Positions 8,534-27,214 are shown, numbered from the stretch's first letter. The stretch is 64,000 bases of DNA from Dictyostelium discoideum (GCA_000004695.1 CM000152.2:2272001-2336000), one strand, 5' to 3'. Notes: generated by a model not told the origin, from the sequence alone. Numbers and translations are program-made.

Positions 8534-11500
8534 TTACAACTGCTCGTCATTACCGTTTGGGGTGTTGAAAGATGAATTATTAGGTGATTCGAAATCATTA
8601 TTAGAATATTCAGAAGGTGAATTTGAGTTTGAATTATTTGAATTTTGGCGAGAATCGCTGATCATTGTTGATAATTTGGTACTGTTTCTATTTTTTGAAC
8701 CTCCGCTATTTGTTGGACTATTATCTGAACTTGTATTAATATTTCTAGCACGTTGTTCAAAACAATACAAAATACTAAATCCAGGAACGATTTCAGTGAT
8801 TATTAAACCAATGAAACTGAATATCATTGAATTTACATTTCCTGCTACTAAAATCAATACAAATACACAATGTAATAAAAATCCAATCGAACATGCAACA
8901 GTGAGTGTAAAAATTTTTCTTTGATGATTTGATTTTGAGCCCACTTTAATATTGGTTGAACGCATAACAATGAATAAACGGCCACCCAAGTAAATGAATG
9001 CTGCACCCATAATTAATGAAATTAATGCTTGAATCACCGCGTAAACAATACTAACTACACGTTGTGGTGTTGAACTTTCCACTGGAATTATAATACGCGA
9101 ACCACAATCATTACTTGGATCGGTATTGGTATATTGGAAAACTAATACAATGGCAATGAATAATAGGTAGAGGAATGCATTGATTACAAATACAATTGTA
9201 AATAATCTCTTTGATAAATTCTCAGCAGATTTATTCTTTTTCAATACCAAGAATACAATGACATACCAAAGTACTAAAAGAATATTAAATGCTGTAAAGT
9301 AAATAAATGTTGGTAATACCACTAGAATGTAATCGGCGATTGGACTATCAGATAAATTACCACTTGGCATAATAAAGAAATAAATGGCTCTAATTGTGAT
9401 AAATAGTGTTACGACACCAATTAAAAGATGGGTTAGTTGGAAATTTCTTTTTTCTGAAACAAACTGAGTTCTAACAATAAGACATAATTCAAATAAACCC
9501 CAAATTGAGACTACTGAAAAGAGAGCACCCAATGTATACATTAATGCTCTTGATGTTGAGTCGAATGCTTGTTTACTTTCATTTTCCCATTCATCCATTC
9601 GATTAATTGGGAAATAAATTGGATTACCACCTTCAATGGTAACAATTGAACATAACATTAAAACTTCATCTTTACCTGCAGTTACACTATCCTTTGAAAT
9701 TTGAGTGAATATTTTATTTGATTGAATTGGAGTTGGTGTTGTTGATTCACCATCGATTTGAACTGCAAAATCTAAAATTGGATATTTTGTGCTAGATAGA
9801 GATATTTTCAAACAAATGGTTGCTTCATTTATACCATCTTGTGATTTAATCATAATACCATCTCCTAATAATGTACCAATGATTGCATCATTAGAGTTTT
9901 TAACACCATATTTATCAGCTTTCTTATAGGATACGAAATTTGATGCTAATGATTCTTTTTGTGCTGATGTATAGATTTCTCTTGAAATTTGTGAAATTGA
10001 TAAAGATTGACAACTTTGAGAGATTGAATCATTTGAAAATTCAATTTTACCATAATCGAATGAAAATGATGAATTTACACCTGCGCATGGTTTAGTTTGA
10101 CCTAATAATGGTGTTGATGCAGTGAAACATTGTGAGCCACCTTTACCTGAACAACTACATGTAATTGAGTTCAAATTTGATTGTAATCTTTCCATACGAC
10201 AATATGCTTCTGAACGGAATAAATCTGCAACTTGAGTTTTTGCTGCTTTTGTAACACTCTTGTAGAATAGTTGATAATTGAATACACTATCGATATCATT
10301 TGGAATGAATGATTTCGCAGTATTCCAAACAATTGGTTTATAAACACCTGGTAACCATGTAGCTGCTTTCCATTGGAATTTATTTGTCCATTTATTGAAT
10401 GAGTCCATACAACCTTCACATAAATCTTGATCCATTTCATTGAATTGGTAGTTGAATGGTAAATTATTAACTGTTATAGTGGATTCTAAAATTTTACAAC
10501 CCATTTGTGATGTACATGAACTTTGATTTCTTGCCGGTATCCACCATACACCACCATCATCTTCACAACTAACTTTACTCAAGTAGTCCAATCCTAATGG
10601 ATAACAACCATTTGGTGAATCTTGTTGGGCATATGGTTCACAACTTATGCCACTAAATTTACCATGTGGGAATAAACATTTACCATATCCATCAGGATAA
10701 TTATAATTTCTTGTAGTGGCTTGATTGAAATAAAATTCATCAGAACAAATACCTGCTGTTAAACATTCTTGTTCAGTTTGACACTCAATTGGTTTTAATG
10801 AGCATAAACTTTGTTGAGCATCTGGACCAATGCATTCACCTTCAAGTTTTGTTGAACAATCTATCCATGTATAACCTGAACCAGCAGTAATACATTGTTG
10901 TTCATCTGTTGCAGATTTTAATATACAAACTTTTGCTTCGGTTGACCATTCAGTTGTACCTACAGGATTATCTAATGCTGCACAATTTGTGCTATTCATT
11001 CCGGTTTGTAAAATTGCACAATAATCATCTTGATTATTTGCTAAACTTGAAGAGCATTCATAACCACATGGTACTGAACATTTACCTTTAGAATTACAAT
11101 TACTTTCGCTTGTTGCTGTTAAATCATATTCACCATTTGGTAAAAGACAAATTTGATTTTGAGTTTGACATGATGTTTGATCTGTAAATTCAGTAGCTAC
11201 ATGACATTGAGTATCTTCATTTGTACAAACACCACAAAAATCTTTTAAAACACAAGCATCTTCACATGACTCTTCAATACCATTTTCAGTATATGTATTA
11301 TCACTGCATGACAAGTATGGACAAATACCCCAAGAAGTACAATTATCAAAATGTGATACTAATCTAAAATCCCAATATAAAAACATACTATCCAAACAAG
11401 TATCATGATGAGAAAGGCATGAACCATCCAAACATCCATTTGTTGAATAACATTGTTCTTTGCTGTATGATACTCTTGACCCCCATGTATATGTAGAACG

Positions 11501-24400: not shown

Positions 24401-27214
24401 ATACATTCTTGATGTTGAACTGCATAACAATCATCTACTTGGAATCCTGGTGACCAAATAAATGTTGAACGATCTTTAATATAATTATGACCAATACAAT
24501 CCTCTCTTATATGGTTATTGAAAACTTTAGTTACAACATCATCATTTACTGTTGTTGAACCTTCTAACAATGAGAATAATGTACCAGGTGATAAGTGTAA
24601 TAGTACACATTTTACATATTCAAAATCGATTGTATCAAAATCTGGTATACAAGTTCTTGAGTATAAATTACATTCACCATTTCCATATCCATTACAATCT
24701 GTATCATTTGAACAAAATGGTGATACTAATTTACTCTTGCAATCTCTTAAAACTGTAATTGATGTTAATTCTAATTTTTTAGGTTCAATTGATGGCACAG
24801 CACAATCATCAATACCAGTTAACGAACTACCATAATCTGATAATACTGATGAGGTACATTCTTGACTTGAACATTGTTCACTTACTAAACTTTTATTCAC
24901 CGATATGAATTGTGTAACATTTTTTAAAACAATTGATGGATTACAACATTGATAATATCTAGCCAATTCTGAACAACATGGGTCAGTTTTATATTCTGGA
25001 TCAGTGACGAAATGTGAACAATATTTTGTTGATATATTCTTTGCAACAGTTTCCATATGTAATAATGATAATGCTTTATTACTACAACCTATCCATGCAT
25101 CACTAATAGTCAATGAATCTAAACTATATCTATAATTATTTAATTCATCAATATCCGAAACATTAAATAGTGTTGTCTCTGTTTTTTCAATAAGTCCCAA
25201 AACTTTTTCAAATTCTGTATTATTACATTCTAAATTTTTTTCTTTAAAATTAATAGTTAAATCAATTGGCTAAAGTAATAATAATAATAATAATAAAAAA
25301 TAAATGTTAATAATTTTTTAAAAAATAAATGTTAATAATTTTTTAAAAAATAAAAATAAAAATTTAATATTATTATTTACATTATTATTTTCATCAAAAA
25401 TAGTTCCAAGGAATTGTAAAGATGATTCTAAAATTGTTGAATAATTTTCAATAAAATCACCACCAACTGAAAGAATAAATGCAACTTGAAATGATTTTGG
25501 TTTAAAAGTATTTAATGGTGGCTGTAAAATATTTAAATAGTTAAATGAAGTTGAATCAATGAAACGAGCAGATACTGGCCATAATGGATTTATATCGTAT
25601 TGTGGATAAATTGCGGTGAATGTAGTGCTAGTTGTAAAAGCTGCTGAATCATAATCAATAGTTGGCAAACGTAAACGTACACTATTAACCAATGCTAAAG
25701 TACCAGGTTGTGTTGATAATGATCCCAATGAATATCTATACCTATTACCTTGATTTGTAATTGAAAATGAATAATCTGTTTCATAAACTGTATATACACT
25801 TAAATAAATAATTAATGGTGTTGTACTATCAACTGGTTCCAAATATAATACCATATTATTTTCATCTAAAAAAAAAATAAAAAATAAAAAATAAAAAAAC
25901 AATTAATAAATTAATAAATTAATAAATTAATAAAATTATTATTATTTAAATACGTTACAATCTTGTTCTAATTTCCAAGTTGTATAACTGGCATTTGGAA
26001 ATATATATTCGTTTGAAATAAATATTGAAGTACTTTGAAAAATTGAAGGGAAATTAAAATAATAGAAACCAGCATTTTCAACTTGAAATGAATAATGTTG
26101 ATATTGATTATCTGTTAAGAAACCATAGACAACTTGACCAATAGTTACACATATATGGTCAGATGATACTGGTTGACAATTTGAAGTGTCGACAGGTTCA
26201 CTTGGTACATCATTTGAACGAATGATCATTTTAAAAGTATAATTGTTACTAAGTGGTTGAATTCTTAAAAAGTAAGTGTCACGACTCCAAGAATCTGTGA
26301 ATGTAAAATGTTCAGTTCTATTCCAATTATCTGATGGACATATATTGAATAACATATTTCTTTCAGGTGAAAAACCAGATGAATAACGTGAATAGCTTGA
26401 TGATGGTGTTTTACCATTAATATAAACTTGACCATATCCAGAGATTGGTAAAACTTTTAAAAATAAACCTTTACAACCAAATGAATCGGCTTTCATTCTA
26501 AAAAATAGATCCTCTGATGTAGTATAGATTTTTTCTGTATCCGATTCAATAGTTGTCCATTCGCCATTACAAATATTCTCAGTGACATTACATGCATTTG
26601 TACAACTTGGATCACGGATTTTCGGACATTCGTTCATATCTGTATAATCACATGTACAATCTATATTCTTATCACTTGGAATATCTGTACAATTATAGTT
26701 TGGACATCCCAATGAATCATATAAATAAATATCTTGATCAAATTCAACATCAATCAATGCATATGATAAATCGGTTCCCAATAAGTTAACATCTTTTTTT
26801 ATAATAGTTGACGATTTAACTTCAATACCTATTTACAATTATTTTAATTAAAAAAAAAAAAAAAAAAAAAAAAAAAAAAAAAAAAAAAAAAAAAAATTGG
26901 TATTTTTAGAATTTTTGATTTTCACGTTTTACAAAAAAAAAAAATAGTGCGAAAAAAAAAAACAGTGCGAAAAAAAAACAGTTCGAATTGTTTTTTTTTT
27001 TTTTTTTTCAGATTCCGTGTGGTAAAATAATTATAATTGTTTATTTTTTGATCTTCGTAAAAATAAAAAAAAATAAAAATAAAACAAAAAAGATAAAAAT
27101 AAAAAAAATAATAATAATGAAAAAAGAAATTAATTTACCTCTGATTTTATTTATAAAAAAAAGATGGAACGAAAATAAGAAAATGTAAAATATTACAATA
27201 TTTTTAACATTCAT
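21478..27214 (-). CDS. Giant Cys-rich-ectodomain 7TM receptor-like protein, paralog 3, about 1740 aa: join(27214..27139,26828..25959,25865..25381,25269..21478)
   Basis: Exon 1 ATG(27214)..MNVKNIVIFYIFLFSFHLFFINKIR(G), donor G|GTAAAT (27138). Acceptor aaatag|GT at 26829/26828 gives (G)IEVKSSTIIKKDVNLLGTDLSYALIDVEFDQDIYLYD.. Exon 2 ends ..WKLEQD T|GTAACG (25958-25953, non-canonical 4th-6th positions; the least certain junction). Acceptor ttttag|ATGAAAAT at 25866/25865 gives (Y)ENNMVLYLEPVDSTT.. Exon 3 ends ..TIFDENNN|GTAAAT (25380). Acceptor ctttag|CCAATTG at 25270/25269 gives PIDLTINFKEKNLECNNTEF..TTLFNVSD.. Seven TM helices and an S/N-rich tail as in paralogs 1 and 2. Intron 1 is unusually long (310 bp). 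Confidence 0.68.

What the first reader, a model, noticed from the sequence alone, without database searches (positions are those of the whole stretch)
8534..27214. Mosaic conservation among the three paralogs suggests gene conversion on the TM/membrane-proximal part and diversification of the distal N-terminal exons
Long stretches of exon 4 are nucleotide-identical between paralogs, for example ...gccacccaagtaaatgaatgctgcacccataattaatgaaattaatgcttg... at about 9000, 15470 and 21950, and the ...gcttctgaacggaataaatctgcaac... block. In contrast, exons 2-3 of paralog 2 (19600-20514 and 18996-19486) are strongly diverged in protein sequence from paralogs 1 and 3, compare MGVDLSYALIDIEFDQDIYKYDSLGCPNYNCTD.. 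with ..KYDSLSCPNFACKD.. and downstream. This pattern (a constant signalling module with a variable distal ectodomain) resembles polymorphic self/non-self or ligand-recognition receptor families.
Basis: partly seen in the sequence, partly recalled or inferred. Interest (0 to 1): 0.7.

Follow-up and report, generated by a model that had tools for sequence, protein, structure and literature searches.

The report
Patchy gene conversion among three receptor-like paralogs
Three neighbouring Dictyostelium genes for large seven-pass membrane proteins keep overwriting parts of each other's sequence, while their outer tips and a few short islands stay stably different; this is a clean new example of a known process, not a hypervariable self/non-self locus.

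Summary
The window is D. discoideum AX4. Positions 8534-27214 (minus strand) hold three intact tandem four-exon genes. Each encodes a signal peptide, a Cys-rich ectodomain of about 1,380 aa, a THH1/TOM1/TOM3-type 7TM domain and a tail.

The mosaic is real.
- Exons 2-3 are deeply diverged between all three copies, not only paralog 2 (dS 0.67-0.96, about 55% aa identity).
- Exon 4 contains perfect par1=par3 tracts of 347 and 427 bp and a par1=par2 tract of 191 bp (permutation P<1e-4).

D. firmibasis has the same syntenic three-gene array, which gives the key test.
- In exons 2-3, three exon-4 "islands" and the tail, each gene groups with its ortholog.
- In four exon-4 blocks, including the 7TM core, paralogs within a species are closer at synonymous sites (dS 0.05-0.30) than orthologs (0.30-0.66). 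This holds independently in both species.
- Other partner pairs and tracts appear in four further genomes.

This is recurrent, regionally restricted interlocus gene conversion.

The "diversifying, polymorphic" reading fails. Across seven genomes the par1 N-terminus has dN/dS 0.10-0.20 and is no more variable than the rest of the gene. The closest analogues are TLR1/TLR6 and the clustered protocadherins. Function is unknown; a receptor role is inferred only.

The parts
8534..14201 (-). Paralog 1 (par1), 1739 aa. Exons: 14201-14141, 13921-13037, 12937-12435, 12304-8534.
   Evidence: Spliced model has GT..AG at all three introns and an intact ORF. Exon structure was inferred from tblastn with the D. 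firmibasis homolog P0001. Pfam PF06454 scores 47 bits. Ortholog of D. firmibasis gene C.
14922..20826 (-). Paralog 2 (par2), 1775 aa. Exons: 20826-20766, 20514-19600, 19486-18996, 18782-14922.
   Evidence: PF06454 scores 52 bits. Ortholog of D. firmibasis gene B. Its N-terminus evolves fastest (dN 0.21 against 0.07 and 0.11).
21478..27214 (-). Paralog 3 (par3), 1740 aa. Exons: 27214-27139, 26828-25959, 25865-25381, 25269-21478.
   Evidence: PF06454 scores 41.6 bits. Positional and sequence ortholog of D. firmibasis gene A (= P0001), with conserved upstream synteny.
12435..13921 (-). par1 exons 2-3, the unconverted N-terminal module (about 462 codons). Equivalents: par2 18996-20514, par3 25381-26828. 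Predicted all-beta fold with PPC/collagen-binding-like sandwich(es).
11507..11959 (-). Converted block 0 in par1 exon 4 (six-gene alignment columns 600-750). The par2 and par3 equivalents lie about +6.48 kb and +12.97 kb away.
   Evidence: Paralog dS is 0.18-0.29 in both species against ortholog dS 0.45-0.66. The nearest neighbour of each AX4 gene is a paralog.
11366..11509 (-). Unconverted island 1 in par1 exon 4 (columns 750-800).
   Evidence: Paralog nucleotide distance is 0.31-0.40 against ortholog 0.12-0.23. Paralog dN is 0.34-0.51, while par1-ortholog dN is 0.06.
10916..11368 (-). Converted block I in par1 exon 4 (columns 800-950). It contains the 347-bp perfect par1=par3 tract, 10932-11278 = 23903-24249.
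   Evidence: par1-par3 dS is 0.05 and firmC-firmA dS is 0.07, against ortholog dS 0.52-0.58. AX4 par3 groups with AX4 par1 (91%), and D. firmibasis A+C group at 100%. In strain FIW a separate 342-bp perfect p1=p2 tract lies in this block.
10331..10918 (-). Unconverted island 2 in par1 exon 4 (columns 950-1150).
   Evidence: The tree groups by orthology: p3 clade 100%, p2 clade 95%. Paralog dS of 0.35-0.49 is about equal to ortholog dS of 0.32-0.55.
9605..10333 (-). Converted block II in par1 exon 4 (columns 1150-1400). It contains the 477-bp tract with one mismatch (427 bp perfect), 9810-10286 = par3 22787-23263.
   Evidence: par1-par3 dS is 0.06 and firmC-firmA dS is 0.05, against ortholog dS 0.30-0.48. 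D. citrinum has p1=p2 perfect runs of 194 and 161 bp here.
9458..9607 (-). Unconverted island 3 in par1 (columns 1400-1450): the juxtamembrane segment plus TM1.
   Evidence: Orthologs are the nearest neighbours for all three AX4 genes. Paralog dS reaches 1.0.
8867..9460 (-). Converted 7TM core in par1 (columns 1450-1650, roughly TM2 to TM5/6). It contains the 191-bp perfect par1=par2 tract, 9222-9412 = 15697-15887. Equivalents: par2 about 15340-15935, par3 about 21815-22405.
   Evidence: Paralog dS is 0.12-0.20 in both species against ortholog dS 0.47-0.55, with equal dN of about 0.04. The tree shows D. firmibasis A+B+C together (100%), D. citrinum p1+p2 together and D. dimigraforme p1+p2 together. 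Seven hydrophobic peaks and PF06454 support the 7TM assignment.
8534..8869 (-). Unconverted last TM helices and Ser/Asn-rich cytosolic tail of par1.
   Evidence: Orthologs are nearest. Paralog nucleotide distance is 0.28-0.44 against ortholog 0.11-0.20. dS/dN values are.

Best explanation
The region holds three intact, tandemly arrayed, same-strand paralogs of an uncharacterised amoebozoan gene family.

**Protein architecture.** Signal peptide, then an N-terminal all-beta module (PPC/collagen-binding-like sandwiches, exons 2-3), then about 900 aa of Cys-rich ectodomain, then a THH1/TOM1/TOM3-type 7TM domain and a low-complexity tail. The Cys-rich part, 7TM and tail are all encoded by exon 4.

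**History.** The triplication happened after the D. purpureum lineage split and before the D. discoideum / D. firmibasis split.

**What is shown.**
- Since the triplication, four blocks of exon 4, including the 7TM core, have been repeatedly homogenised by non-reciprocal interlocus gene conversion. That is homologous-recombination repair using a neighbouring copy as template, without crossover, since copy number stays at three.
- This has happened independently in each lineage, and it is still going on. AX4 has par1=par3 tracts of 347 and 477 bp at 99.8-100% identity. Strain FIW has a private 342-bp p1=p2 tract.
- Exons 2-3, three short exon-4 islands, TM1, the last TM helices and the tail escape conversion. 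They retain one-to-one orthology and evolve under purifying selection.

**What is inferred.**
- The unconverted segments are paralog-specific specificity determinants, such as ligand- or partner-binding surfaces. They are kept apart by selection against converted alleles, reinforced by the fact that more than 30% divergence itself blocks heteroduplex formation.
- The converted blocks are a shared scaffold and transduction module.
- A receptor function is inferred from architecture only.
For: 1. Three intact genes with canonical splice sites and a PF06454 7TM domain.
2. Perfect tracts and significant clustering of concordant sites.
3. D. firmibasis has the same three genes in the same order with conserved flanking genes. 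All are intact.
4. Segment-wise dS. In the converted blocks, within-species paralog dS is 0.05-0.30 against ortholog dS 0.30-0.66, in both species. In exons 2-3, paralog dS is 0.67-1.20 against ortholog 0.47-0.73.
5. Conflicting NJ trees with high bootstrap. The N-terminus and island 2 group by orthology (95-100%). The 7TM core and blocks I and II group by species.
6. Perfect paralog runs of at least 120 nt occur in six of seven genomes, in the same blocks but between different partners and with different limits. AX4 / D. firmibasis orthologs never share 60 identical nucleotides.
7. Converted 30-codon windows coincide between the two species (Fisher P=3e-5 for p1/p3 and 1e-3 for p2/p3).
8. Purifying selection acts on the N-terminus (dN/dS 0.10-0.29).
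9. An independent AX4-like assembly (L008) matches the window at 99.9% across par1 and part of par2.
10. The pattern meets the published criteria for concerted evolution and for selection-maintained divergence peaks (PMC3924837; PMC2077338).
Against: - No GC3 enrichment in converted blocks: 0.10-0.17 against 0.15-0.23 elsewhere. The biased-gene-conversion footprint used as support in other systems is therefore absent.
- The direction of the recent events is unresolved for block I. The par1 orthologs of different strains are unusually divergent there.
- Whether the islands are kept by selection or only by loss of homology cannot be decided from sequence.
- par2 and par3 from other D. discoideum strains could not be retrieved, so population-level variability of their N-termini is untested.
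- The coincidence test reuses the same ortholog distances for both species, so it is not fully independent.
- There is no functional or expression data at all.
Confidence: 0.87

Rival explanations
1. No conversion. The mosaic reflects regionally different constraint or mutation rate, with the 7TM and some ectodomain blocks simply evolving slowly.
For: dN is low in the 7TM core for all comparisons, about 0.04. The converted blocks include the most conserved protein segments.
Against: Synonymous sites in those same blocks diverge freely between orthologs (dS 0.30-0.66) but not between paralogs of one genome (0.05-0.30). Perfect paralog tracts reach 427 bp, while AX4 / D. firmibasis orthologs share no identical run of 60 nt. 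Trees cluster by species.
Confidence: 0.02
2. One reading: the N-terminal exons are under ongoing diversifying selection and are polymorphic within populations, as in self/non-self or ligand-recognition receptors such as tgrB1/tgrC1.
For: - The N-terminal modules differ by about 45% aa between paralogs.
- The predicted fold is a binding-type beta sandwich.
- The par2 N-terminus evolves 2-3 times faster than the others.
- Stem branches after the triplication are long, consistent with an early burst.
Against: - Across seven genomes the par1 N-terminus has dN/dS 0.10-0.20.
- Its dN (0.010-0.071) is at or below that of the exon-4 ectodomain (0.014-0.105).
- All three N-termini keep clean 1:1 orthology with D. 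firmibasis at 100% bootstrap.
- Pairwise dN/dS between paralogs is about 0.5, not above 1.
- There are no IPT/TIG domains, and the proteins are 7TM rather than single-pass.
Confidence: 0.06
3. The mosaic arose by unequal crossing-over or repeated partial (exon-4-only) duplications rather than by gene conversion.
For: Direct tandem repeats with a 6.48-kb period are substrates for unequal crossover.
Against: - The tracts are short (131-477 bp) and flanked on both sides by diverged sequence within one exon.
- Copy number is three in both fully sampled species. It is probably three in the others too, judging from the fused annotations of 5,173-5,288 aa.
- Introns and intergenic spacers are not homogenised.
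- Non-adjacent copies (par1 and par3) exchange sequence without affecting par2.
Confidence: 0.04
4. Assembly artefact: collapsed or chimeric consensus across near-identical repeats created the perfect tracts.
For: Tandem paralogs are a classic source of mis-assembly.
Against: The same kind of tract appears in six further independently assembled genomes. L008 reproduces par1 and part of par2 at 99.9%. All reading frames remain intact.
Confidence: 0.01

Closest known systems
TLR1/TLR6 regional gene conversion in mammals (Kruithof et al. 2007, PMC2077338)
   Same: - Tandem receptor paralogs.
- The N-terminal ligand-side region keeps orthology.
- A defined C-terminal region, including the TM segment, is more similar between paralogs than between orthologs.
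- Conversion is independent in each species, and the converted regions are almost identical (compared).
   Different: - Here there are three genes, and several converted blocks are interleaved with protected islands rather than forming one 300-aa block.
- The protein family is unrelated (7TM PF06454, not LRR-TIR).
- The organism is an amoebozoan.
- No binding partners are known.
Clustered protocadherin variable exons (Noonan et al. 2004, cited in PMC1852091; fugu Pcdh, PMC1852091)
   Same: - Lineage-specific regional homogenisation of the membrane-proximal ectodomain, TM and cytoplasmic part of tandem paralogs.
- The distal ectodomain (EC1-EC3) stays distinct and is the part usable for orthology trees.
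   Different: - The Pcdh converted regions show raised GC3, and none is seen here.
- Pcdh genes are single-pass adhesion molecules with shared constant exons.
- The genes here are complete, independent four-exon 7TM genes.
Human red/green opsin 'peak of divergence' under gene conversion (reviewed in Fawcett & Innan 2011, PMC3924837)
   Same: Low paralog divergence is maintained by conversion, with sharp local peaks where functional differences are preserved. The theory treats such peaks as markers of selection targets.
   Different: The islands here are 50-200 codons plus a whole 460-codon N-terminal module, rather than a few sites. Selection is inferred, not demonstrated.
Plant THH1/TOM1/TOM3 seven-pass membrane proteins (Pfam PF06454)
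   Same: The 7TM domain matches the Pfam model above the gathering score in all three paralogs.
   Different: The plant proteins are about 290 aa and consist of the 7TM domain alone. Their described role is as host factors for tobamovirus replication complexes (abstracts listed). The proteins here add a signal peptide and an ectodomain of about 1,380 aa with no Pfam match.
Dictyostelium tgrB1/tgrC1 allorecognition genes (from general knowledge)
   Same: Same organism, with cell-surface proteins that have large ectodomains.
   Different: - tgr proteins are single-pass with IPT/TIG repeats, and they are highly polymorphic between strains.
- The genes here are 7TM and have no IPT/TIG match.
- The par1 N-terminus is conserved between strains.

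Membership tests
Concerted evolution by interlocus gene conversion | In defined segments, paralogs within a genome are more similar than orthologs between species, at synonymous sites. | tested here: met
   In the converted blocks, paralog dS is 0.05-0.30 against ortholog dS 0.30-0.66, in both D. discoideum and D. firmibasis.
Concerted evolution by interlocus gene conversion | Identical or concordant sites are clustered into tracts beyond chance (Sawyer/GENECONV-type test). | tested here: met
   The longest concordant run is 36 sites, against a permuted maximum of 16 (P<1e-4). The sum-of-squares statistic gives P<1e-4 for all pairs. This was my own implementation, not GENECONV itself.
Concerted evolution by interlocus gene conversion | Adjacent segments of the same genes give conflicting phylogenies. 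| tested here: met
   The N-terminus and island 2 group by orthology at 95-100% bootstrap. The 7TM core and blocks I and II group by species at 88-100% for D. firmibasis.
Concerted evolution by interlocus gene conversion | Non-reciprocal transfer without change in copy number. | tested here: inconclusive
   Copy number is three in both complete loci. Fused annotations of about 5,200 aa suggest three copies elsewhere. Non-reciprocity cannot be shown from single haplotypes.
Concerted evolution by interlocus gene conversion | GC-biased footprint (raised GC3) in converted regions. This is often, though not always, present. | tested here: not met
   GC3 is 0.10-0.17 in converted ectodomain blocks against 0.15-0.23 in unconverted segments. 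This is not a defining requirement.
THH1/TOM1/TOM3 7TM family (Pfam PF06454) | Match to the family profile above the curated gathering score. | tested here: met
   Scores are 47, 52 and 41.6 bits against a cut-off of 25, covering profile positions 3-258 of 273.
THH1/TOM1/TOM3 7TM family (Pfam PF06454) | Seven transmembrane helices. | tested here: met
   There are seven hydropathy peaks at aa 1399-1665 of par3, and likewise in par1 and par2. The AF2 model shows seven long helices, but at low confidence (pLDDT 43).
THH1/TOM1/TOM3 7TM family (Pfam PF06454) | Biochemical role (host factor for viral replication complexes, or proposed GPCR-like signalling). | not testable with these tools
   No functional data. 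The papers listed concern plants only.
Polymorphic allorecognition receptors (tgrB1/tgrC1 type) | Ectodomain hypervariable between strains, with excess nonsynonymous change. | tested here: not met
   Against three D. discoideum-complex genomes, the par1 N-terminus has dN 0.010-0.018, dS 0.05-0.14 and dN/dS 0.12-0.20. par2 and par3 were not testable at strain level.
Polymorphic allorecognition receptors (tgrB1/tgrC1 type) | IPT/TIG-repeat ectodomain with a single-pass TM. | tested here: not met
   No Pfam domain is found in the ectodomain even at E<=10. The proteins are 7TM.
Adhesion-type GPCRs (large ectodomain + GAIN/GPS + 7tm_2) | A GAIN/GPS autoproteolysis domain next to a secretin-like 7TM. 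| tested here: not met
   There is no GPS, GAIN or 7tm_2 Pfam match. The 7TM is PF06454. The structure model of the juxtamembrane region was too poor to exclude a cryptic GAIN-like fold.
PPC / collagen-binding-domain-like beta sandwich (N-terminal module) | Fold similarity to solved PPC/CBD domains. | tested here: inconclusive
   [not shown]

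The most novel reading that the evidence does not exclude
The conserved alternation of converted blocks and conversion-resistant islands may act as a natural functional map of an uncharacterised amoebozoan family of giant-ectodomain 7TM proteins. The alternation falls in the same places in D. discoideum and D. 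firmibasis.

On this reading, the N-terminal beta-sandwich module, three short exon-4 islands, TM1 and the tail carry paralog-specific ligand or partner specificity, and selection defends them against homogenisation. The converted blocks would be a common scaffold and transduction core that must co-evolve, for example because the three proteins form hetero-oligomers or share one downstream partner.
Probability: 0.3. Interest if true: 0.55.

Novelty: new member of a known kind. Interest (0 to 1): 0.4.

Why it matters
- It gives a well-controlled case of ongoing, regionally restricted concerted evolution in a social amoeba. There are three gene pairs in two species plus five more genomes. My literature searches found no report of this for the family or the locus.
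- Paralog divergence in exon 4 badly under-estimates the age of the duplication, so trees for this family should be built from exons 2-3.
- Current automated annotations fuse the three genes into one protein of about 5,200 aa.
- The protected islands and the N-terminal module are concrete candidates for specificity determinants in a widespread amoebozoan 7TM family that is entirely uncharacterised.
- The result removes the more exciting suggestion that this is a hypervariable self/non-self locus.

Tried and rejected
1. A database search with the par1 N-terminal module alone returned nothing. This is a limitation of the word index, not evidence of absence: the full-length hits P0001-P0004 all contain the module.
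2. Global-alignment projection of gene models failed at the AT-rich ends. It was replaced by exon-wise projection with splice-site and ORF checks.
I modelled the D. firmibasis ortholog instead, with the window exons as alignment rows.
4. The model of the juxtamembrane ectodomain plus 7TM had pLDDT 43. I judged it unusable and ran no fold search on it.
5. The GC3 test for biased gene conversion was negative.
6. Pairwise dN/dS gave no window-level evidence of positive selection in exons 2-3 (about 0.5 between paralogs, with dS near saturation). I rejected this as evidence either way for an ancient burst.
7. Donor direction of the recent AX4 events looks like par1 to par3 in block II. It is ambiguous in block I, because strains differ by 4-11% there.
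8. Literature searches for Dictyostelium-specific work on this family or on gene conversion at this locus found nothing relevant.
9. par2 and par3 N-termini from other D. discoideum strains could not be retrieved.

Full report
**Source and context**

The window has about 22% G+C. The ORF at 6573-8186(-) is identical to D. discoideum AX4 XP_641706.1 / Q54WL1, so the window is AX4 chromosomal DNA. Its other genes are:
- a RasGEF/RhoGAP/GRAM gene;
- the Q54WL1 beta-helix gene;
- the three paralogs;
- JmjC and aldehyde dehydrogenase genes;
- a five-unit polyubiquitin gene;
- a tRNA-Cys.

**Anatomy**

A direct repeat with a period of about 6.48 kb covers 8.5-27.2 kb (families D19 and D20). I derived four-exon models from tblastn with the best database homolog (P0001, D. 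firmibasis) and by inspecting the junctions.
- All nine introns are GT..AG.
- All three spliced ORFs are intact, at 1739, 1775 and 1740 aa.
- Each gene has its own ATG and signal-peptide exon and its own stop codon. The intergenic spacers are 651 and 720 bp.

The only Pfam match is the THH1/TOM1/TOM3 7TM domain near the C-terminus (41.6-52 bits against a cut-off of 25). Seven hydrophobic peaks follow an ectodomain of about 1,380 aa, which has no Pfam match even at E<=10.

**Checking the observation**

Both quoted oligonucleotides occur exactly three times, at the stated places. Sliding identity confirms a mosaic. The perfect tracts are:

| Pair | Coordinates | Length |
|---|---|---|
| par1 = par3 | 10932-11278 = 23903-24249 | 347 bp |
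| par1 = par3 | 9810-10236 = 22787-23213 | 427 bp (477 bp with one mismatch) |
| par1 = par2 | 9222-9412 = 15697-15887 | 191 bp |

A Sawyer-type permutation of polymorphic sites rejects a random distribution (P<1e-4 for par1-par3).

One correction is needed. All three copies are mutually diverged in exons 2-3 (dS 0.67-0.96, dN 0.34-0.49, 53-55% aa identity). It is not paralog 2 alone.

**The decisive comparison**

The look-up of encoding contigs on P0001 showed that D. firmibasis has the same array next to the same upstream genes. Orthologs of the downstream neighbour gave six more loci.
- Merging L001 and L002 gives the complete D. firmibasis locus.
- It holds three intact genes: A (ortholog of par3), B (par2) and C (par1).

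In a six-gene codon alignment, the nearest neighbour of each AX4 gene alternates along the sequence.
- It is the ortholog throughout exons 2-3, in three exon-4 islands (alignment columns 750-800, 950-1150, 1400-1450) and in the tail.
- It is a within-species paralog in four blocks (600-750, 800-950, 1150-1400, and the 7TM core at 1450-1650).

Nei-Gojobori estimates make the point at synonymous sites.

| Segment | Within-species paralog dS | Ortholog dS |
|---|---|---|
| Converted blocks (both species) | 0.05-0.30 | 0.30-0.66 |
| Exons 2-3 | 0.67-1.20 | 0.47-0.73 |

Constraint on the protein cannot explain this. Synonymous sites in the same blocks are free to change between species.

**Trees**

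Bootstrapped NJ trees give the following.
- The N-terminus and island 2 group by orthology (95-100%).
- In the 7TM core, D. firmibasis A+B+C group together (100%). D. citrinum p1+p2 and D. dimigraforme p1+p2 also pair up, with weaker support (48% and 61%).
- Within the D. discoideum complex, p1 and p2 form separate clades.
- In blocks I and II, AX4 par3 nests inside the D. discoideum p1 clade, and D. firmibasis A+C pair at 100%.

**Ongoing activity**

Perfect paralog runs of at least 120 nt are found in six of seven genomes. They lie in the same blocks but involve different partners and limits. Examples are a private 342-bp p1=p2 tract in strain FIW and p1=p2 runs of 194 and 161 bp in D. citrinum. 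By contrast, AX4 and D. firmibasis orthologs never share 60 identical nucleotides.

Converted 30-codon windows coincide between the two fully sampled species (Fisher P=3e-5 for p1/p3). The caveat is that the two tests share the same ortholog distances.

**Is the N-terminus diversifying?**

No. For par1 orthologs in three D. discoideum-complex genomes, D. citrinum, D. dimigraforme and D. firmibasis:
- the N-terminal exons have dN/dS 0.10-0.20;
- their dN is at or below that of the exon-4 ectodomain.

Between D. discoideum and D. firmibasis, N-terminal dN/dS is 0.15 (par1), 0.23 (par3) and 0.29 (par2).

A protein tree with D. purpureum homologs places the triplication after the D. purpureum split and before the D. 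firmibasis split. The stem branches are long. Divergence of the N-termini was therefore early and has since been conserved. The neighbouring Q54WL1 gene evolves much faster (dN/dS 0.37-1.0), so the strains are not simply too similar to show variability.

**What the proteins are**

phmmer against 1.84 billion representatives found 547 relatives, 87 of them at E<=1e-30. Many are full-length proteins of 1,600-1,800 aa. The sample I looked up came from D. purpureum, D. citrinum, D. dimigraforme, Acytostelium, Cavenderia, Planoprotostelium and Stygamoeba. All named members are "hypothetical" or "THH1/TOM1/TOM3 domain-containing", except the Planoprotostelium protein, which UniRef labels "Guanylate cyclase".

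An AF2 model of the N-terminal module was built on the D. firmibasis ortholog, which is 82% identical to par3.
- The model has pLDDT 68.6 and is all-beta.
- This suggests a binding-type module, with medium confidence.

The model of the juxtamembrane region plus 7TM was too poor to use. No paper on this family in Dictyostelium was found.

**Mechanism**

Shown:
- The process is recurrent, tract-wise and lineage-independent homogenisation of defined exon-4 blocks.
- Three gene copies are retained.
- Introns and spacers are not homogenised.

This is the signature of interlocus gene conversion without crossover. It matches the published criteria (PMC3924837).

Inferred:
- The N-terminal module, islands, TM1 and tail are paralog-specific determinants protected by selection, by loss of homology, or by both.
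- The converted blocks form a shared scaffold and transduction core.

No GC3 footprint of biased conversion is present.

**Comparison with known systems**

The pattern is essentially that of mammalian TLR1/TLR6 (PMC2077338) and of clustered protocadherins (PMC1852091). It also shows opsin-like "peaks of divergence". The differences are that it occurs in an unrelated 7TM family in an amoebozoan, and with several interleaved blocks rather than one. It is not a tgrB1/tgrC1-like system (see the membership table).

**Verdict**

The "diversifying, polymorphic recognition receptor" half is not supported. This is a new, well-documented member of a known kind of phenomenon. It has moderate interest, chiefly as a map of candidate specificity regions in an uncharacterised receptor-like family and as a warning for phylogeny and annotation.

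Noticed in passing
window 6573-8186 (-): The downstream neighbour (Q54WL1, a PMP-repeat / right-handed beta-helix membrane protein) evolves very fast. dN/dS is 1.0, 0.58 and 0.67 against three D. discoideum-complex genomes, and 0.37-0.48 against three other species. This is far higher than any part of the paralogs.
   Followed up: partly
L003-L008 and L001/L002 (gene tables): Recent NCBI assemblies annotate the three tandem genes as one fused protein of 5,173-5,288 aa. In D. firmibasis, B+C are fused as the 3,464-aa protein P0013. Yet every copy has its own start and signal-peptide exon and its own stop codon, so this is probably an annotation artefact.
   Followed up: partly
L003 4222-9613 (D. 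discoideum ACTFIW par1 ortholog): This allele ends 11 codons earlier than AX4 par1: exon 4 is 3,738 nt instead of 3,771 nt.
   Followed up: no
window 59609-60754 (+): A polyubiquitin gene with five 228-bp units that are 78-95% identical to one another. This is another classic concerted-evolution substrate in the same window.
   Followed up: no
window 49489-50121, 53510-54037, 55562-56077, 57430-57918 (-): Four copies of an ORF of about 160-210 aa with a long poly-Asn run and no Pfam match. They are spaced 1.9-4 kb apart in very AT-rich DNA and are 87-96% identical over 300 nt (repeat family D17).
   Followed up: no
window 58676-58749 (+): A tRNA-Cys (GCA) lies between the repeated ORFs and the polyubiquitin gene.
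   Followed up: no
[not shown]
   Followed up: partly
window 19600-20514 / 18996-19486 (par2 exons 2-3) compared with L001 16534-18026: The par2 N-terminus and its D. firmibasis ortholog B diverge 2-3 times faster than the other two pairs (dN 0.21 against 0.07 and 0.11; dN/dS 0.29). D. firmibasis B also has higher GC3 throughout.
   Followed up: partly
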